This document shows positions 9,880-15,234 of a stretch of DNA of 32,000 nucleotides, piece by piece. The notes below the pieces were generated by a model. That model was given only the letters and a program-made list of their open reading frames with translations. It was not told the DNA's origin and ran no database searches. This stretch comes from Acidimicrobiales bacterium. GTDB taxonomy: Bacteria > Actinomycetota > Acidimicrobiia > Acidimicrobiales > Iamiaceae. Within the stretch, counting starts at the first letter, position 1, and every line of letters begins with the position of its first letter. The DNA is taken from positions 1 to 32,000 of the forward strand of contig JAOBWM010000006.1 in the NCBI GenBank assembly GCA_025463365.1, read 5' to 3'. Position numbers and translations under genes: made by a program.

Positions 9880-10122
9880 ATGGCCGTCCTCCGGCTCTTC
9901 GCCGCTGCCCGGACCGCTGCCGGAACGTCCCGGGACCACCTGCCGGGCGCCACGGTGGCCGATGTCCTCGATGCCGCCGTCGCCCGCTACGGCGACGACT
10001 TCGGCGCGGTCCTGCCCACCTGCGCGGTGTGGCTCAACGGTGAACCGGCCGACCGAGACGCACCCGTGACGGCCGACGACGAGGTAGCCGTCCTGCCGCC
10101 GGTGTCGGGCGGGGCCTGGTGA
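9880..10122 (+). CDS. MoaD/ThiS-family ubiquitin-like sulfur-carrier-type protein with a GG-AW C-terminus
   Basis: 80 aa. The pattern VRLFAAAR...G....V.DVL..........DDEVAVLPPVSGG fits MoaD. Two extra residues (AW) follow the diglycine. The stop overlaps the next start (GTGA). Confidence 0.7.
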   Translation: MAVLRLFAAARTAAGTSRDHLPGATVADVLDAAVARYGDDFGAVLPTCAVWLNGEPADRDAPVTADDEVAVLPPVSGGAW

Positions 10123-11360
10123 CCCCGGCGACCCCGCCCACCGGCGATCCCGGTGGCCCTCGCCGGCCGCCCCCGCGCCGGTCCGCCAGGCCCGCCATAC
10201 CCGCAGCGCCGTCCAAGCCGGCATCGCCATCCAAGGCGGCAGCGCCGTCCAAGGCGGCATCGCCCTCCAAGCCGGCAGCGCCGTCCAAGCGGGCAGCGCC
10301 GGCGAAGCCCGCCGGACCGGACCGGACCCGGGCCAAGGCCCCGATCCCGGACCCGCCGGGTCCGCGTCCCGAGCGTGCACCGCGCCGGCGAGGTCCGGCA
10401 CCGGCGCCGGTGGTCCGCCACGGCGTGACCTTCCGCGAGCCGGTGGCGCCGCCCGCGCCCGCACCGACCCAGGCCGTCGCTGCGTCGGACGCCGCCCGCG
10501 TGGCCGAGTCTCCGCCTGCGCCGGTCGTCGAGGCCGACCCGCGTCCCGTCCTGCTCCCCGCGGTCCCGTCGCACAGCTCGACGTTCCGGCAGCGCTTCGG
10601 CGTGGTCTACGACACGCAGGGCCCCAAGGTCCGCCTCGGCGTCGGCTGGGCAATCGCGGTGATCGTCGCCCTCGGCGCGAGGCCCCTGCGCCCGTACGGC
10701 CTGGCCGGGCTGTTCGCGATCGTCGCCGGTGCCGCCGCCGCCCAGATCCTCGATGCCCACCGCGGGCGCGACACCACCTCGGACCGACGGGTGGCCGCAT
10801 ACGGGGCATCGGCCCTGCCGATCCTCGCCACCGCTGGTGGCCGGGCGCTGGGTGTGGGCATCCTCGCCCTCGTGGCCGTCTCGCTGGTGGGCGTCGTGTT
10901 CTTCCCCGACGCCCACCGCGCGCTGTTCTCGCGGGCCGGCCACATCGTCGCGGCCGCCACGATCTGCGGCGGCGCGGCCGCCTCCCTCGTCCTGCTCGCC
11001 GACTACGAGATCGGCGCCGTCATCATCCTCCTCACGTTCGTCCTGGTGTACGACGCGAGCGACTACGTCGTGGGCTCGGGCGCGAGCAACGGCGTCGAGG
11101 GTCCGCTGGCGGGCATCTTGTTCATCGCCGTGACCGCGTTCCTGTTCGCGGAGACCCACGGCCCGCCGTTCCACGGCGGCGACATCTGGAGCTTCGCGGT
11201 GCTGGCGATGCTCGGCTGCCCCCTCGGCCAACTGGTCGCCTCCGCCCTCCTGCCGCAGGCCGGCTCGCGCGCGCCGGCGCTGCGACGGCTGGATTCGCTG
11301 CTCGTGGTCGCTCCGGCCTGGGCGGGCCTCGTCGGCCTGTACCTCGCACGGGTCACCTGA
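10119..11360 (+). CDS. Pro/Ala-rich N-terminal region plus polytopic membrane domain with degenerate CdsA-like (CTP_transf_1) remnants
   Basis: 413-aa ORF. Residues 1-165 are a low-complexity P/A/S/K region. Residues 170-413 contain about 7 hydrophobic segments with YDASDYVVGSG, PFHGGD and RRLDSLLVVAP, reminiscent of CdsA motifs. The start codon is uncertain (GTG 10119, coupled to the upstream gene). Confidence 0.55.
   Translation: MTPATPPTGDPGGPRRPPPRRSARPAIPAAPSKPASPSKAAAPSKAASPSKPAAPSKRAAPAKPAGPDRTRAKAPIPDPPGPRPERAPRRRGPAPAPVVRHGVTFREPVAPPAPAPTQAVAASDAARVAESPPAPVVEADPRPVLLPAVPSHSSTFRQRFGVVYDTQGPKVRLGVGWAIAVIVALGARPLRPYGLAGLFAIVAGAAAAQILDAHRGRDTTSDRRVAAYGASALPILATAGGRALGVGILALVAVSLVGVVFFPDAHRALFSRAGHIVAAATICGGAAASLVLLADYEIGAVIILLTFVLVYDASDYVVGSGASNGVEGPLAGILFIAVTAFLFAETHGPPFHGGDIWSFAVLAMLGCPLGQLVASALLPQAGSRAPALRRLDSLLVVAPAWAGLVGLYLARVT
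10209..10316 (+). repeat. In-frame 18-bp tandem repeat x6 encoding PSKxAx hexapeptides
   Basis: Encodes PSKPAS PSKAAA PSKAAS PSKPAA PSKRAA PAKPAG (residues 31-66 of the membrane protein). Read directly from the DNA and its translation. Confidence 0.85.
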
Positions 11361-11413
11361 ACGAGCCCCCTCGAGCCGGCCGGGCTCCGCTCCGCAGGTC
11401 GATCCTTCGGCAC

Positions 11414-11441
11414 TAAGGTCGACCACGGCCCGTGCCGATCA
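11414..11441 (+). promoter_or_regulatory. Candidate sigma-28 / FliA / WhiG-type promoter upstream of the RsiG-like gene
   Basis: TAAG-N16-GCCGATCA compared with the consensus TAAA-N15/16-GCCGATAA. The -10 element ends 19 nt before the TTG start, so the predicted short leader still contains the AGGAG SD. Alternative reading: TAAGGT (11414-11419) is a housekeeping TANNNT -10 box. Confidence 0.4.
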
Positions 11442-11460
11442 CGTAGGTCAGGAGAGACCA

Positions 11461-12003
11461 TTGGACGCGGAGCTCGATCGGATCCTCGACGATCACTACC
11501 TCGACGGGTTGGAAGACCGGTCGATGGTCCAGGTGCGCGAGCTGCGAGCGGAATGCCAGGCGGTGGAGACCCAGCTGTCGTACCTGCGCCGGCTGGTCCA
11601 GGGCCAGCACGACATCGTCACCGGCGAGATCACGCGCCGCCAGGGCGGCGGTGACCCCGACGACGTCCACGGGCTGGTCGAGCGCCTGCCGGAGATCCTC
11701 GCCGACCGGATCCACGCCCCGGGCCCGGGCCGCCTCCCCGTCGGCATGGAACCGCGGGAGCTCTCGGGCTCGCTCGTCGACCGGTTGGATGCCATCACCG
11801 CCACCGTCCAGCTGGAATCCACCGGGGCAGCCTCGGTCGACGACCTGCTGGGCGTGGCGGCCGAACTGGAGACCCTCGAGCACGACGTCTCCTCCCTGCG
11901 CCGAGCCCTGTTCGATCGGATCGATCCGCTCCAGGCCGAGATCACGAGGCGCTACAAGGCCGGCGAGGCCCACGTCGACGACCTGCTGACCGGCGAGGGC
12001 TGA
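11461..12003 (+). CDS. RsiG-like c-di-GMP-binding anti-sigma factor candidate
   Basis: 180-aa acidic, helical ORF. TTG start with AGGAG (11450-11454) 6 nt upstream. E36-x3-S40-x2-R43-x3-Q47-x3-D51 is an exact match to the RsiG signature. The second copy, E140-x3-S144-x2-R147-x3-F151-x3-D155, differs only at Q->F. The C-terminal RRYKAGEAHVDDLL is also RsiG-like as I recall it. Confidence 0.65.
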   Translation: MDAELDRILDDHYLDGLEDRSMVQVRELRAECQAVETQLSYLRRLVQGQHDIVTGEITRRQGGGDPDDVHGLVERLPEILADRIHAPGPGRLPVGMEPRELSGSLVDRLDAITATVQLESTGAASVDDLLGVAAELETLEHDVSSLRRALFDRIDPLQAEITRRYKAGEAHVDDLLTGEG

Positions 12004-12093
12004 TCGTCTGCGCCCGCGAGCCCTGCTCGCGGAAGGCAATGAGGTGCTCGCGCCGGTTGGGGACGCGCGCCGGTGCCGCCCTAGCCTGGCCCC

Positions 12094-12573
12094 ATGAGCG
12101 AGCTCGAGACCCGGTGGCACGACCTGGGCGAGTTCATCCGCGAGCAGCGACGTGTCGGACATCTGTCGCTGCGGAAGCTCTCGGAGATGGCCGGGATCTC
12201 GAACCCCTACCTCAGCCAGATCGAGCGTGGCCTGCGCAAGCCGTCCGCCGAGATCCTCCAGCAGATCGCCCGGGCGCTCGAGATCAGCTCGGAGACGCTC
12301 TACGTGCGGGCCGGCATCCTCGAGGCCCGCGAGGGCGACACCGACCTGGTCACCGAGATCCGGCGCGATCCGTGGATCAACGAGGAGCAGAAGAAGACGC
12401 TGGTGCAGATCTACGAGTCGTTCCGGGCCGAGCGGCGTGCCGCCGGCTTCGATGCCGACGTCATCCCGAACGCGGCCCACGCCGCCGCGCTCGCCGCCCT
12501 GCGCGAGACCGACGAGGCGGCCGAGCGGCGCACCTCCGGGGATCCGGAATCCGAGGCGCTCGCCGGGCGTTGA
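12094..12573 (+). CDS. XRE-family helix-turn-helix transcriptional regulator
   Basis: 159-aa ORF with the HTH region LSLRKLSEMAGISNPYLSQIERGLRKPSAEILQQIARAL. TAGCCT lies 6 nt upstream of the ATG, a leaderless-type layout. Confidence 0.8.
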   Translation: MSELETRWHDLGEFIREQRRVGHLSLRKLSEMAGISNPYLSQIERGLRKPSAEILQQIARALEISSETLYVRAGILEAREGDTDLVTEIRRDPWINEEQKKTLVQIYESFRAERRAAGFDADVIPNAAHAAALAALRETDEAAERRTSGDPESEALAGR

Positions 12574-12583
12574 ACGTCGGGCC

Positions 12584-13795
12584 ATGACCGAGCTCGCCGT
12601 CCTGTCCCTCCATTCGTCGCCGCTGGCGCAGCCCGGCACGGGTGACAGCGGCGGGATGAACGTGTACGTCCGGGAGCTGGCGGCCGCACTGGCCCAGGCG
12701 GGCGTCGAGACGTCGGTCTTCGTGCGGCGGTGGGCCGACGACCTGCCCGCCGAGGTGTCCGTCGAGCCCGGGTTCCGCGTGGTCCACATCGAGGCCGGCC
12801 CCACGGACCTGCCCAAGGAAGCCCTGGCCGACACCGTCGAAGCGTTCACCGACGGCGTGGCCAGCCACCTCGCCCACCGTCCCGTCGACGTGATCCACGC
12901 CAACTACTGGCTGTCGGGGGCGGCGGGCCATCGCTTGAAGCACCGGCTCGACCTTCCGCTGGTGTCCACGTTCCACACCCTCGCCCGGGTGAAGGCCGAG
13001 ACCGGCGATCCCGAGCCGAGTCGCCGCGTCGACGCCGAATCCGAGGTCATCGGCTGCTCGGACGTGATCCTCGCAAACTCCGTCGAGGAGGTCGCCCAGC
13101 TCGAGCGGCTGTACGGCGCCGACCCGTCGCGCATCGAGATCGTGCCGCCCGGCGTCGAGCACGCCTTCTTCTCTCCGGGTGATCGGCGGGGCGCTCGCGA
13201 TGCGCTCGGCCTCGGCGACCACCCGGTGCTGCTGTTCGTCGGTCGCATCCAGCCGCTGAAGGGCCTTTCGGTCGCCGTCGGCGCCCTCGCCGCCCTCGGC
13301 CGCCCCGACGCCGAGCTGGTGGTCGTCGGCGGGCCGAGCGGGGCCGAAGGCGAGGCTGAGCTGGCCCGGGTCGTGGCCCAGGCCGATCGCCTGGGCGTCA
13401 CCGACCGCATCCGGTTCGTCCCGGCCCAGCCGCACCACCTGCTCTCCACCTACTACCGCGCCGCCGACGTCGTGCTCGTCCCCAGCCGTTCGGAGTCGTT
13501 CGGCCTGGTGGCCCTCGAGGCCGCCGCCTGCGGTGTGCCTGTGGTGGCCACCGCGGTGGGAGGCCTGCGCACGCTCGTGGACCACGGCCGGACCGGCCTG
13601 CTGGTGCATCGTCGCGAGCCGGAGGCGTTTGCGTCGGCCGTCGCGCAGGTCCTCCATGACCCCGCTTGGGCCGCGGCCCTCGGTGCCGCGGCCGCCGAGC
13701 GGGCACGTGGGTTCACCTGGTCCACGGCCGCCGCCCGCTTGCGCCGCGTGTACGGCGACCTGGCCACCCGCGCCCCGCTCGACTGCGCGGTCTGA
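12584..13795 (+). CDS. mshA: D-inositol-3-phosphate glycosyltransferase (mycothiol biosynthesis, GT4)
   Basis: 403 aa from ATG 12584. Contains LSLHSSPLAQPGTGDSGGMNVYV, the characteristic MshA N-terminus, and the GT4 C-terminal motif PSRSESFGLVALEAAACGVPVV. The track ORF's upstream extension overlaps the XRE gene out of frame. Confidence 0.9.
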   Translation: MTELAVLSLHSSPLAQPGTGDSGGMNVYVRELAAALAQAGVETSVFVRRWADDLPAEVSVEPGFRVVHIEAGPTDLPKEALADTVEAFTDGVASHLAHRPVDVIHANYWLSGAAGHRLKHRLDLPLVSTFHTLARVKAETGDPEPSRRVDAESEVIGCSDVILANSVEEVAQLERLYGADPSRIEIVPPGVEHAFFSPGDRRGARDALGLGDHPVLLFVGRIQPLKGLSVAVGALAALGRPDAELVVVGGPSGAEGEAELARVVAQADRLGVTDRIRFVPAQPHHLLSTYYRAADVVLVPSRSESFGLVALEAAACGVPVVATAVGGLRTLVDHGRTGLLVHRREPEAFASAVAQVLHDPAWAAALGAAAAERARGFTWSTAAARLRRVYGDLATRAPLDCAV

Positions 13796-13840
13796 CCCCG
13801 GCCCGGGCTGGCCCACAGCGCGGCTGGGTAGCGTCGGGCC

Positions 13841-14305
13841 GTGCCCGAACCTGCGACCGAAGCCGAGCTCGACGAGCTGGAGGCGCGCATCGACGACTGG
13901 GCGGCGCGGGAGCTGGCTGCCAACCCGACGGTCGCGTCGGTCGACCGGGCCGAGGAGCCCGACATCCGCCGCTGGTACGTCCGCCTCCGCGGCGAGGAGA
14001 AGGACACCTTCACGGTGTGGTTCACGCTCCGCCAACGCACCCTCCACTACGAGACCTACGTGATGCCGGCGGCCGAGGAGGACCACGAACGGTTCTACGA
14101 GCACCTCCTGCGCCGCAACCTCCGCTTCAACGGCGCCGCCTTCACGATCGGCGAGGAGGACGCGGTGTTCCTCGTGGGCCAGATCCCGGTGCAGGCCGTC
14201 ACCGACGACGAGCTCGATCGCATCCTCGGCTCGCTCTACGCCTACGTCGAGCAGTGCTTCCGCCCGGCCCTGCGCATCGGCTTCGCCTCGCGATTCAAGG
14301 ACTGA
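13841..14305 (+). CDS. YbjN-domain protein (the conserved actinobacterial partner downstream of mshA)
   Basis: 154-aa acidic ORF with a GTG start. It has the position and size of the conserved hypothetical that follows mshA in mycobacteria. The YbjN-like pattern (W.V.L.GE.K......F.L....L) is recognised by eye only. Confidence 0.6.
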   Translation: MPEPATEAELDELEARIDDWAARELAANPTVASVDRAEEPDIRRWYVRLRGEEKDTFTVWFTLRQRTLHYETYVMPAAEEDHERFYEHLLRRNLRFNGAAFTIGEEDAVFLVGQIPVQAVTDDELDRILGSLYAYVEQCFRPALRIGFASRFKD

Positions 14306-14451
14306 ACCGGCGGGTACGGTGCCCGGACCGGCGGAACGGTGACATCGGGGAAGGTGCACCGCCGCCCGGACTCGCCAGGCACCGTCGACCCGGTTGGTCA
14401 AGCCGAGGTCGGCGGCGGCCCGGCCCCTGAGGGGTCGCCTACCCTGCGCCC

Positions 14452-15234
14452 ATGACCAAGCTGGTGGTGGTGGGGGGCGGGAAGATGGGCGAAGCGCTCG
14501 TGGGTGGCCTGCTGGCGGGCGGCTGGACGACGGCCGAGCAGATCACGGTGGTGGAGCCGGACGCGGCGCGGCGGGCGCACCTCGCCACCTCGTTCCCGGG
14601 CCTCGCCGTCGGGGTCGAGCCGGTCGCGGCTTCCGGCGCCGTCATCGCCGTGAAGCCGGGCAAGGTCGCCGAGGTCGCGGCCCAACTGGGCGCCCTCGCC
14701 ATCCCTCGCGTGTTGTCGATCGCGGCGGGCGTCCGCCTCGAGACGATCGAGGCCCAGGTCCCGGTGGACACGGCGGTGGTGCGGGCGATGCCGAACACGC
14801 CGGCGCTCGTCGGCCAGGGCGCGGCCGCCATCGCCGGGGGCCACGGCGCGGGCGACGACGACCTCGTCTGGGCCGAGGGCATCCTCGGCGCGGTCGGCAC
14901 CGTGGTGCGCGTCACCGAGGACCAGCTCGACGCCGTCACCGGCCTCTCGGGCTCTGGCCCCGCATACGTCTTCCTCGTGGCCGAGGCGCTCGTCGACGCC
15001 GGCGTGCTCGTCGGTCTGCCACGCGACACCGCCGCCGACCTCGTCGCGCAGACCTTGCGGGGCGCGGCCGAGCTGCTCGCCGCTGGGACCCCGGCAGCCG
15101 AGCTGCGCGCTGCGGTCACCTCGCCCGGCGGCACCACCGCGGCAGGCCTGCGCGCGCTCGAGGCGGCCGCGGTCCGCGCCGCGTTCGCCGACGCCGTCGT
15201 CGCCGCCACCGCCCGCAGCCGCGAGCTCGGCTGA
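14452..15234 (+). CDS. proC: Pyrroline-5-carboxylate reductase
   Basis: 260-aa ORF with VVGGGKMGEAL (Rossmann fold), RAMPNTPALVGQG, and SGSGPAYVFLVAEAL...VTSPGGTT, the ProC signature. Confidence 0.9.
   Translation: MTKLVVVGGGKMGEALVGGLLAGGWTTAEQITVVEPDAARRAHLATSFPGLAVGVEPVAASGAVIAVKPGKVAEVAAQLGALAIPRVLSIAAGVRLETIEAQVPVDTAVVRAMPNTPALVGQGAAAIAGGHGAGDDDLVWAEGILGAVGTVVRVTEDQLDAVTGLSGSGPAYVFLVAEALVDAGVLVGLPRDTAADLVAQTLRGAAELLAAGTPAAELRAAVTSPGGTTAAGLRALEAAAVRAAFADAVVAATARSRELG

What the first reader, a model, noticed from the sequence alone, without database searches (positions are those of the whole stretch)
11414..12003. RsiG-like anti-sigma candidate with two c-di-GMP-binding signatures and a WhiG/FliA-type promoter-like motif in front of it
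Seen: a 180-aa acidic, helix-prone ORF with a TTG start and a good SD.
- Residues E36-TQL-S40-YL-R43-RLV-Q47-GQH-D51 (nt 11566-11613) match E-x3-S-x2-R-x3-Q-x3-D exactly.
- A second copy, E140-HDV-S144-SL-R147-RAL-F151-DRI-D155 (nt 11878-11925), matches except Q->F.
- Just upstream lies TAAG-N16-GCCGATCA (11414-11441), close to the sigma-28/FliA/WhiG consensus TAAA-N15/16-GCCGATAA.

Established: in Streptomyces RsiG this signature, repeated on two coiled-coil helices, binds c-di-GMP and arms the protein to sequester sigma WhiG. Single-motif homologues have been described in early-branching, non-sporulating Actinomycetota.

Inference: this is an RsiG-type c-di-GMP effector whose gene may be transcribed by its own cognate sigma, a FlgM-like feedback loop. 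It sits in a housekeeping neighbourhood directly upstream of an XRE regulator and mshA. The cognate sigma is not in this window. The asymmetric second motif (Phe for Gln) is a variation I cannot place.
Basis: partly seen in the sequence, partly recalled or inferred. Interest (0 to 1): 0.75.

Follow-up and report, generated by a model that had tools for sequence, protein, structure and literature searches.

The report
RsiG anti-sigma gene, Acidimicrobiia type
This gene encodes a normal member of the known RsiG family, a protein that uses the signalling molecule c-di-GMP to hold back a sigma factor. Its odd Phe residue is standard for its bacterial class, and the 'own-sigma' promoter proposed in front of it is probably an ordinary housekeeping promoter.

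Summary
The ORF at 11461-12003 (+) is real and is a twin-motif RsiG.
- It hits Pfam PF22802 at E=1e-25.
- It aligns full length to Streptomyces venezuelae RsiG (PDB 6PFJ, E=4e-14).
- The only significant structural matches to its AlphaFold model are RsiG chains of 6PFV.

The window comes from an uncultured Acidimicrobiales bacterium. The closest named relative is Aquihabitans (70% identity). Twin-motif RsiG was already reported in this order.

The Phe-for-Gln change in motif 2 is not an oddity:
- In about 155 Acidimicrobiia orthologues this position is F (141), H (14) or L (1), and never Q.
- The other nine motif residues are invariant in the 80 aligned genome-derived orthologues.
- The position corresponds to Gln173 of S. 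venezuelae RsiG, which stacks on a guanine base.

TAAG-N16-GCCGATCA exists, but such sites occur at chance frequency in the window. 'TAAG' is the start of TAAGGT. That hexamer aligns with a TANNNT SigA-type -10 box found upstream of 149 of 154 orthologues.

The GCCGATCA box is kept only in the nearest relative (79% identity). A feedback loop is therefore unproven here. One distant orthologue (L076) does carry a perfect WhiG-type promoter.

The cognate sigma could not be checked. Verdict: a new member of a known kind, of low to moderate interest.

The parts
11461..12003 (+). rsiG coding sequence (180 aa, TTG start, stop included)
   Evidence: Pfam PF22802 RsiG at 89.6 bits against a cut-off of 27. 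PDB 6pfj_T RsiG at E=4.2e-14 over residues 21-176. GC3 0.92. AF2 model pLDDT 83.8, and the only significant Foldseek hits are 6pfv RsiG chains.
11566..11613 (+). c-di-GMP motif 1 on helix alpha1: E36-x3-S40-x2-R43-x3-Q47-x3-D51
   Evidence: Exact match. Invariant in 81/81 genome loci, and Q is kept in 75/75 metagenome loci. Aligns to E64/S68/R71/Q75/D79 of S. venezuelae RsiG (numbering).
11878..11925 (+). c-di-GMP motif 2 on helix alpha5: E140-x3-S144-x2-R147-x3-F151-x3-D155
   Evidence: E, S, R and D are invariant. Position 151 is F 72 / H 9 and F 69 / H 5 / L 1. F151 aligns to Gln173 of S. venezuelae RsiG, the guanine-stacking residue.
11450..11456 (+). Shine-Dalgarno AGGAGAG, 4 nt before the TTG
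   Evidence: Read directly. GGAG is conserved at this position in leadered orthologues.
11414..11419 (+). TAAGGT: probable SigA-type -10 hexamer (TANNNT).
   Evidence: Aligns with TACAGT/TACCAT/TAGAGT in close orthologues. TANNNT is present in 76/80 and 73/74 orthologous upstream regions, against about 13 expected. TANNNT is the preferred SigA -10 in actinobacteria (PMC6448022).
11434..11441 (+). GCCGATCA box: resembles a sigma-28/WhiG -10 element. It is either part of the 5' leader or a lineage-specific second promoter
   Evidence: 7/8 match to GCCGATAA. The -10 half-site scores +12.2 bits in a class-specific PWM. It lies in a 17-nt block that is identical in L083 (79% aa identity) while the flanking DNA has diverged. 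It is absent from L085/L086 and from about 150 other orthologues.
10119..11360 (+). Conserved upstream neighbour: predicted membrane protein with no family hit
   Evidence: No Pfam hit. Found directly upstream of rsiG on the same strand in 75 loci.
12094..12573 (+). Conserved downstream neighbour: XRE-family HTH regulator, probably leaderless (TAGCCT at 12082-12087)
   Evidence: PF01381 HTH_3 at E=2.4e-13. Found about 90 nt downstream of rsiG in 75/75 loci that have enough sequence.
12584..13795 (+). MshA-like GT4 glycosyltransferase
   Evidence: Best NCBIfam hit is TIGR03449 mycothiol_MshA at 404.5 bits, below the equivalog cut-off of 462.5. Syntenic in 73 loci.

Best explanation
The ORF is the Acidimicrobiia orthologue of RsiG, the c-di-GMP-armed anti-sigma factor of the WhiG (sigma-28 family) sigma.

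How it most likely works:
- It folds as a monomer with two long antiparallel helices, residues 22-61 and 126-166.
- Each helix carries one E-x3-S-x2-R-x3-[Q/F]-x3-D motif.
- Together the two motifs clamp a c-di-GMP dimer. That dimer then bridges RsiG to a WhiG2-type sigma encoded elsewhere in the genome and sequesters it.
- Phe151 does the job of Gln173 in the Streptomyces protein, stacking on a flipped-out guanine. It is the class-typical residue at that position.

The gene sits in a vertically inherited core-genome block: membrane protein, rsiG, XRE regulator, MshA-like GT4, YbjN, proC.

It is most likely transcribed from a housekeeping SigA-type promoter whose -10 is TAAGGT (11414-11419). 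That gives a leader of about 35 nt containing the Shine-Dalgarno sequence.

What is shown and what is inferred:
- Shown here: family membership, predicted fold, motif conservation, synteny, and the promoter footprint.
- Inferred from published work on homologues: c-di-GMP binding, sigma sequestration, and the stacking role of Phe.
For: Family and fold:
- Pfam RsiG at E=1e-25, with two matched stretches.
- Full-length phmmer match to S. venezuelae RsiG in 6PFJ/6PFV, and matches to Rubrobacter RsiG 7LQ2-4.
- AF2 model with pLDDT 83.8 and pTM 0.76, showing helices 22-61 and 126-166.
- Foldseek against the PDB gives RsiG chains of 6PFV as the only hits below E=1e-3 (TM 0.62-0.70). The next hit has E=0.7.
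- Alpha1 and alpha5 are 35% identical when aligned on the motif. The published figure for S. venezuelae RsiG is 33%.

Motif conservation:
- Nine of the ten motif residues are invariant in 81 genome loci. The tenth position is F or H in those loci, and F, H or L in 75 metagenome loci.
- The Gln residues at this position stack on guanine, and His is an accepted substitute (PMC7005675; PMC8325347).

Taxonomy and context:
- All 80 genome hits are Acidimicrobiia, the best being Aquihabitans at 70%.
- Twin-motif RsiG was reported in 3 of 4 Acidimicrobiales genomes, and RsiG-bearing genomes also harbour WhiG.
- Synteny is conserved in about 75 loci.

Promoter:
- TANNNT is present in 76/80 upstream regions (shuffle mean 13, maximum 25) and in 73/74.
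- Its position is bimodal, at -41..-59 (leadered) or -11..-16 (leaderless).
- The window's TAAGGT aligns with TACAGT.
Against: - No sigma gene lies in the window or within 10 kb of rsiG in 80 relatives. The rest of this genome is not available, so the partner is unverified.
- Phe at the stacking position has not been tested biochemically in any RsiG.
- The E. coli-style sigma-70 promoter scan finds nothing in 11300-12150, so the SigA-promoter call rests on the phylogenetic footprint alone.
- The GCCGATCA box is conserved in the nearest relative. The housekeeping-promoter model does not explain this by itself.
Confidence: 0.8

Rival explanations
1. One reading: rsiG in this organism is transcribed by its own cognate sigma from TAAG-N16-GCCGATCA. 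This would make a FlgM-like negative feedback loop, possibly acting alongside the housekeeping promoter.
For: - The -10 half-site GCCGATCA is excellent, at +12.2 bits in a PWM built from conserved Acidimicrobiia sigma-28-type promoters, many of which read nCCGATCA.
- The box lies in a 17-nt block identical between the window and L083 (79% aa identity), although the DNA upstream of the hexamer has diverged.
- The spacing is N16, as in published WhiG promoters.
- The site would pass the one-mismatch criterion used in PMC12871210.
- One distant orthologue, L076, has a perfect TCAA-N16-GCCGATAA site 7 nt before its rsiG start and lacks a TANNNT box. That is the only 12/12 site in 1.2 Mb of loci, so this architecture does exist in the class.
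Against: - The -35 half-site scores -1.8 bits. The whole site scores 10.4 bits, against 15.7-24.2 for the training sites, and 17 other positions in the window score higher.
- The pattern count is at the chance level.
- 'TAAG' becomes 'TACA' in L083 and TACA/TACC/TAGA elsewhere. What is conserved is T1, A2 and T6, which is the SigA -10 signature and not the TAAA/TCAA signature.
- No site with at least 10 of 12 matches lies upstream of rsiG in about 150 other orthologues.
- Leader sequences are also conserved within the Aquihabitans group, which lacks the box. Conservation of the block therefore does not point specifically to sigma-28.
Confidence: 0.2
2. The protein is an RsiG homologue that has lost or changed its ligand or partner. 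The Phe in motif 2 might abolish or retune c-di-GMP binding, or the protein might act on something other than WhiG. The constant XRE neighbour could hint at this.
For: - F151 replaces a residue that contacts the ligand in the solved complex.
- The XRE regulator is adjacent in 75/75 loci.
- No sigma gene lies nearby.
- A few family representatives carry Leu, which is not aromatic, at this position.
Against: - All specificity-determining residues are invariant over about 155 orthologues. These are the Arg that reads the Hoogsteen face, the Asp that reads the Watson-Crick face, and the Ser and Glu that contact ribose or phosphate. A degenerating site would not show this.
- An aromatic side chain is chemically suited to base stacking, and the published work accepts His there.
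- rsiG is also unlinked to whiG in Streptomyces (my own knowledge, not tested here), so a missing neighbour says little.
- Conserved sigma-28-type promoters exist in the class.
Confidence: 0.07
3. The GCCGATCA block is a feature of the 5' leader, such as an RNA hairpin or an operator for a DNA-binding regulator, and not a promoter element at all.
For: - It lies downstream of the conserved TANNNT box and so within the predicted leader.
- Leaders of the Aquihabitans group are conserved too and can form a 7-bp 5' hairpin.
- CGTG-N5-CACG around the box is a short inverted repeat.
Against: - Predicted folds are not better than shuffled sequence. The z-scores are -1.4 for the window, -0.55 for L083, and -1.9 and +0.5 for two Aquihabitans-group leaders.
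- Only two independent sequences carry the box, so covariation cannot be assessed.
- No regulator is known to have this site.
Confidence: 0.25

Closest known systems
Streptomyces venezuelae RsiG (vnz_19430; PDB 6PFJ/6PFV), the twin-motif monomeric anti-sigma of WhiG
   Same: - Same Pfam family.
- Colinear full-length alignment at 34-35% identity.
- Same predicted two-helix antiparallel core, with linker and C-terminal tail.
- Motif 1 identical in pattern.
- Motif 2 identical at E, S, R and D.
   Different: - Phe151 replaces Gln173 at the stacking position of alpha5.
- The host is a unicellular, non-sporulating Acidimicrobiia lineage, so the regulon cannot be sporulation genes.
- The gene is always followed by an XRE regulator and an MshA-like gene.
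Twin-motif RsiGs already catalogued in Acidimicrobiales (Ilumatobacter coccineus YM304_37910, Acidithrix ferrooxidans AXFE_25810, Ferrithrix thermotolerans; PMC8325347 Table S1)
   Same: Same class, same twin-motif architecture, and presumably true orthologues.
   Different: - This copy comes from an unsequenced genus. Its best genome match is Aquihabitans at 70%, and its best metagenome protein match is 97%.
- The paper describes the alpha5 motif as conserved with Gln and does not mention the class-wide Phe/His seen here.
Single-motif homodimeric RsiG of Rubrobacter radiotolerans (PDB 7LQ2-7LQ4)
   Same: Alpha1 and motif 1 align, at E about 4e-4 over residues 15-63.
   Different: Those proteins are about 85-118 aa with one motif and act as dimers. 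This one has both helices in a single chain.
FlgM-FliA feedback in enteric bacteria, where the anti-sigma gene is transcribed by its own sigma-28
   Same: L076 shows the same wiring, with a perfect sigma-28-type promoter on its rsiG.
   Different: - There is no sequence or fold relationship between FlgM and RsiG.
- In the window the wiring is not supported.
- About 150 orthologues show a housekeeping-type -10 instead.

Membership tests
RsiG (PF22802), twin-motif class | Significant match to the curated family profile | tested here: met
   89.6 bits against a gathering score of 27, E=1e-25, with two matched stretches.
RsiG (PF22802), twin-motif class | Colinear homology to the structurally characterised S. 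venezuelae RsiG over both helices | tested here: met
   phmmer E=4.2e-14, with query residues 21-176 aligned to chain residues 26-175 of 6pfj_T.
RsiG (PF22802), twin-motif class | E(X)3S(X)2R(X)3[Q/H](X)3D on helix alpha1 | tested here: met
   E36/S40/R43/Q47/D51 is an exact match. It is invariant in orthologues.
RsiG (PF22802), twin-motif class | E(X)3S(X)2R(X)3[Q/H](X)3D on helix alpha5 | tested here: inconclusive
   - E140/S144/R147/D155 are present and invariant.
- The stacking position is Phe, which lies outside the published [Q/H] definition.
- Phe is nevertheless the rule in Acidimicrobiia: F 72 / H 9 and F 69 / H 5 / L 1.
- Among the 150 nearest cluster representatives the counts are H 86, F 42, L 7 and Q 7.
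RsiG (PF22802), twin-motif class | Antiparallel coiled-coil fold with the two motifs in register | tested here: met
   - AF2 model pLDDT 83.8, with helices 22-61 and 126-166.
- Foldseek finds only RsiG chains of 6PFV at E<1e-3, with TM 0.62-0.70.
- The register was inferred from helix limits, because model coordinates could not be inspected.
RsiG (PF22802), twin-motif class | Co-occurrence with a WhiG2-clade sigma in the same genome | not testable with these tools
   - There is no sigma in the window or within 10 kb of rsiG in 80 relatives.
- The genome is not in the collections; its exact protein occurs only on a 1 kb metagenome contig.
- Literature states that RsiG genomes harbour WhiG.
- Conserved sigma-28-type promoters in the class give indirect support.
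RsiG (PF22802), twin-motif class | c-di-GMP-dependent binding of the sigma | not testable with these tools
   This needs biochemistry.
WhiG/FliA (sigma-28)-dependent promoter | -10 element GCCGATAA with the central CGA | tested here: met
   GCCGATCA is a 7/8 match and scores +12.2 bits in the class PWM.
WhiG/FliA (sigma-28)-dependent promoter | -35 element T(A/C)AA at N16, described as highly conserved in PMC12871210 | tested here: not met
   - TAAG is a 3/4 match and scores -1.8 bits in the class PWM.
- It varies to TACA in the nearest relative.
- It coincides with a TANNNT box conserved for another reason.
WhiG/FliA (sigma-28)-dependent promoter | Occurrence above chance and conservation in orthologues | tested here: not met
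   - 2 observed against 1.7 expected, and 3 against 1.4 expected.
- The site is present only in the window's own lineage (L001, L084, L083) and, independently, in L076.
WhiG/FliA (sigma-28)-dependent promoter | Transcription start 6-9 nt downstream of the -10, dependent on the sigma | not testable with these tools
   This needs 5' end mapping or in vitro transcription.

The most novel reading that the evidence does not exclude
In the window's genus-level lineage (window, L001, L084, L083), rsiG may have gained a WhiG-dependent promoter (-10 GCCGATCA) laid over the ancestral housekeeping promoter. The sigma would then drive synthesis of its own c-di-GMP-armed anti-sigma. The same FlgM-like loop evolved independently, with a perfect consensus site, in the L076 lineage. 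In addition, the class-wide Phe at the alpha5 stacking position may make the two halves of the c-di-GMP pocket unequal and so tune the switch point.
Probability: 0.2. Interest if true: 0.5.

Novelty: new member of a known kind. Interest (0 to 1): 0.3.

Why it matters
As it stands, this is a correct annotation of a gene that public databases leave as 'hypothetical' or 'aerial mycelium formation protein'. It extends a known c-di-GMP switch to one more uncultured Acidimicrobiales lineage.

Three small points go beyond the literature:
- The published motif E(X)3S(X)2R(X)3[Q/H](X)3D should be widened to [Q/H/F] for helix alpha5. Phe or His, and not Gln, is the rule in Acidimicrobiia and among the 150 nearest relatives sampled.
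- rsiG in this class is part of a fixed core-genome block next to an XRE regulator.
- Sigma-28-type promoters are conserved in the class in front of a secreted CAP-domain protein gene, and in one lineage in front of rsiG itself. This gives a first view of what a WhiG-RsiG switch might control in these non-sporulating bacteria, which are abundant in soil and water.

Tried and rejected
- Searching for the sigma nearby: tblastn with E. coli FliA against the window and 80 loci (1.2 Mb) found no sigma gene at E<0.01. I extracted WhiG residues 47-274 from the PDB alignment. I ran no further search on it, because only the best 120 hits are listed and I expected these to be Streptomyces sequences rather than Acidimicrobiia.
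- A metagenome scan with the L076 RsiG, meant to test whether its perfect WhiG promoter is conserved in relatives, found nothing.
- A second metagenome scan with alignment A1 gave 80 loci, but none closer than 69% identity.
- DNA for P0007 (73%) was not retrievable.
- The E. coli-type sigma-70 and terminator scan of 11300-12150 returned nothing. This is expected in a 73% GC actinobacterium and is not informative.
- RNA folding of the leaders was not significant, so a structured-leader explanation for the GCCGATCA block is left open.
- The supplement of the 2026 preprint, which holds the WhiG1/WhiG2 presence table, is not held as text.
- I considered that the ORF might be a chance coiled-coil carrying the motif. 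This is rejected by the profile, fold and conservation results.
Full report
**Observation**

The region was read directly and its ORFs listed.
- A 180-codon ORF runs from a TTG at 11461 to a stop at 12001-12003.
- AGGAGAG lies 4 nt upstream of the TTG.
- Third-position GC is 0.92 in a 72.7% GC window, the signature of real coding sequence here.
- The protein is acidic (pI 4.56).
- TAAG-N16-GCCGATCA is at 11414-11441.

**What the protein is**

- Pfam's RsiG-like model PF22802 matches at 89.6 bits (cut-off 27), with two matched stretches.
- Against all PDB sequences the best hit is the RsiG chain of the S. venezuelae RsiG-WhiG-c-di-GMP complex (6PFJ/6PFV, deposited as 'AmfC protein'). The match has E=4.2e-14 and is colinear over residues 21-176. 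The single-motif Rubrobacter RsiGs 7LQ2-4 follow.
- An AlphaFold2 model built on a 70-sequence alignment has mean pLDDT 83.8 and pTM 0.76. It shows two long helices, 22-61 and 126-166, each with a motif at its centre.
- Foldseek against the PDB returns three RsiG chains of 6PFV as the only hits below E=1e-3 (TM 0.62-0.70, 34-35% identity). The next hit has E=0.7.
- In the alignment, Q47 and F151 correspond to Gln75 and Gln173 of the Streptomyces protein. According to the structure paper, these residues 'stack against the rotated bases' of the c-di-GMP dimer (PMC7005675).
- The two helices are 35% identical to each other when aligned on the motif. This matches the internal duplication described for the family.

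**Where it comes from and how usual it is**

- A search of 5.8 billion proteins found 1946 homologues. The top 120 are 60-97% identical and all carry PF22802. The named ones are Acidimicrobiales: Aquihabitans at 70%, Ilumatobacteraceae, and 'amfC' or 'aerial mycelium formation protein' entries.
- A scan of one genome per species returned 80 loci, all Acidimicrobiia: Aquihabitans, Iamiaceae, Microthrixaceae, Ilumatobacteraceae and others. The best is 70% identical.
- The exact protein is on record only on a 1 kb ENA metagenome contig.
- The 2021 PNAS survey already reported twin-motif RsiG in 3 of 4 Acidimicrobiales genomes, namely Ilumatobacter, Acidithrix and Ferrithrix. It also stated that RsiG-bearing bacteria harbour WhiG homologues.

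This is therefore a new member of a known kind.

**The Phe in motif 2**

- In the 80 genome loci plus the window, nine of the ten motif residues are invariant. Position 151 is F in 72 and H in 9, and never Q.
- In 75 further metagenome loci it is F 69, H 5 and L 1, with Q47 kept in all 75.
- Among the 150 best representatives of 50%-identity clusters from 1.8 billion proteins, the position is H 86, F 42, L 7 and Q 7.
- The published statement is that motif 2 is conserved with Gln and that only motif 1 varies to His. That reflects a sample dominated by Streptomyces and its relatives.
- The residue's role is base stacking, and the authors accept His as equivalent. An aromatic Phe is therefore a conservative change. 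Its fixation across a class argues for function, not decay.

That Phe retains or tunes c-di-GMP binding is an inference. It has not been tested.

**The promoter-like motif: chance level**

- T[AC]A[AG]-N15/16-GCCGA occurs twice in the window, against 1.7 expected from dinucleotide shuffles.
- Sites matching at least 10 of the 12 consensus positions occur three times, against 1.4 expected.
- At the one-mismatch stringency of the 2026 preprint there are 29 sites, mostly inside genes.

**The promoter-like motif: comparison with orthologues**

- In the 70 nt upstream of rsiG, 76 of 80 genome loci contain a TANNNT hexamer. Shuffles give a mean of 13 and a maximum of 25.
- In the independent metagenome set, 73 of 74 loci contain one.
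- The hexamers fall in two position classes. Those at -41 to -59 are followed by a GGAG Shine-Dalgarno. Those at -11 to -16 have the geometry of leaderless mRNAs.
- In the alignment of close relatives, the window's CTAAGGTCG lines up with GTACAGTCG and CTACCATCG.
- TANNNT at -6 to -13 from the start site is the preferred SigA -10 in actinobacteria (PMC6448022).
The conserved letters are T1, A2 and T6. Positions 3 and 4, which a sigma-28 -35 box (TAAA or TCAA) would fix as AA, read AG, CA, CC, GA and GG.

**The promoter-like motif: the GCCGATCA half-site**

The GCCGATCA half is harder to dismiss.
- The nearest relative with DNA is L083 (RsiG 79% identical). It has CACTACAGTCGGGAGCGGCCCGTGCCGATCACGCAGGTCAGGAG. 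A 17-nt block containing the box is identical, while the sequence upstream of the hexamer is unrelated.
- Relatives at 73% identity (L085, L086/87) lack the box.
- While scanning the loci for sigma-28-like sites, I found that a secreted CAP-domain protein gene (PF00188) carries TCAA(G/C)-N16-nnCGA(T/C)nA in 17 of 19 loci. The gene lies about 8 kb from rsiG on the other strand. The -10 often reads nCCGATCA, and in most of these loci the site ends 5-8 nt before the start codon.
- A weight matrix was built from these sites plus L076. It gives training scores of 15.7-24.2 bits.
- The window site scores 10.4 bits, with +12.2 for the -10 half and -1.8 for the -35 half. It ranks 18th in the window.
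- Leaders are also conserved within the Aquihabitans group, which lacks the box. Block conservation therefore does not point specifically to sigma-28.
- RNA folding of the leaders is not significant.

I put the probability that this site is a working WhiG promoter at about 0.2.

**A real example of the proposed wiring**

- L076 is an Acidimicrobiales MAG whose RsiG is 40% identical and has His in alpha5 (Pfam E=1.2e-27).
- It has TCAAGGCCGCTTCGGGGAGCGCCGATAA ending 7 nt before its GTG start.
- This is a perfect match to T(A/C)AA-N16-GCCGATAA and the only 12/12 site in 1.2 Mb of loci.
- L076 is one of the few loci without a TANNNT box.
- A feedback loop from WhiG to rsiG therefore probably exists somewhere in the class, but as an exception.

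**Context**

- The order membrane protein, rsiG, XRE regulator, GT4 glycosyltransferase, YbjN, proC is kept in essentially every locus with enough sequence: 75, 75, 73, 68 and 60 loci for the respective neighbours. The Pfam gene lists agree.
- The glycosyltransferase's best match is mycothiol MshA (TIGR03449) at 404.5 bits, below the equivalog cut-off of 462.5. 'MshA-like' is therefore the safe name.
- The XRE gene has TAGCCT 6 nt before its ATG and is probably leaderless.
- No sigma gene lies in the window or within 10 kb of rsiG in any of the 80 genome loci.

**Limits**

- The cognate sigma in this genome could not be looked for.
- Model coordinates could not be inspected, so 'motifs facing each other' rests on helix limits and on the fold match to 6PFV.
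- Ligand and partner binding are inferred from homologues.

**Verdict**

The identification as RsiG is right and robust. The Phe is explained. The self-sigma promoter is not supported, though it is not excluded. The finding is a well-made annotation of a known family with minor new details.

Noticed in passing
L076:857-884 (promoter) and L076:892-1434 (rsiG): A perfect WhiG2 consensus site, TCAA-N16-GCCGATAA, ends 7 nt before the GTG start of this distant Acidimicrobiales rsiG, and no TANNNT box is present. It is the only 12/12 site in 1.2 Mb of fetched loci. This suggests a leaderless, WhiG-driven rsiG in that lineage.
   Followed up: partly
L029:18111-18875 (-) with promoter at about L029:18884-18911 (-); likewise L031, L034, L036, L037, L040, L041, L046-L048, L053, L063, L078-L081: A secreted CAP-domain (PF00188) protein of about 240 aa with a Pro-rich C-terminal region lies about 8 kb from rsiG on the opposite strand. 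It carries a conserved sigma-28-type promoter, TCAA(G/C)-N16-nnCGA(T/C)nA (often nCCGATCA), in 17 of 19 loci. In most of them the site ends 5-8 nt before the start codon. It is a candidate member of the WhiG regulon in Acidimicrobiia. The gene is not present in the window.
   Followed up: partly
window 12082-12096: The XRE regulator gene downstream of rsiG has TAGCCT ending 6 nt before its ATG and no Shine-Dalgarno. This is the geometry of a leaderless mRNA.
   Followed up: no
window 10119-15234 and loci L002-L081: The gene order membrane protein, rsiG, XRE, MshA-like GT4, YbjN, proC is conserved across essentially all Acidimicrobiia loci examined. The XRE regulator is always about 90 nt downstream of rsiG, so a functional link cannot be excluded.
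   Followed up: partly
Whether Acidimicrobiia make mycothiol with it is open.
   Followed up: no
window 10119-10400: The N-terminus of the conserved upstream membrane protein is a low-complexity run rich in Pro, Ala, Ser and Lys (PSKPASPSKAAAPSKAASPSKPAAPSK...). The protein has no Pfam match.
   Followed up: no
proteins P0126, P0155, P0160, P0161, P0191: Several RsiG-family cluster representatives are 270-340 aa long, with the RsiG part at the C-terminus. They may be fusions with an unknown N-terminal domain, or start codons miscalled in high-GC DNA.
   Followed up: no
orthologous loci L026-L081 and L115-L167: In about half of the orthologues the TANNNT box (mostly TACGCT) sits 11-16 nt before the rsiG start with no Shine-Dalgarno. 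rsiG therefore appears to switch between leaderless and leadered forms within the class.
   Followed up: partly
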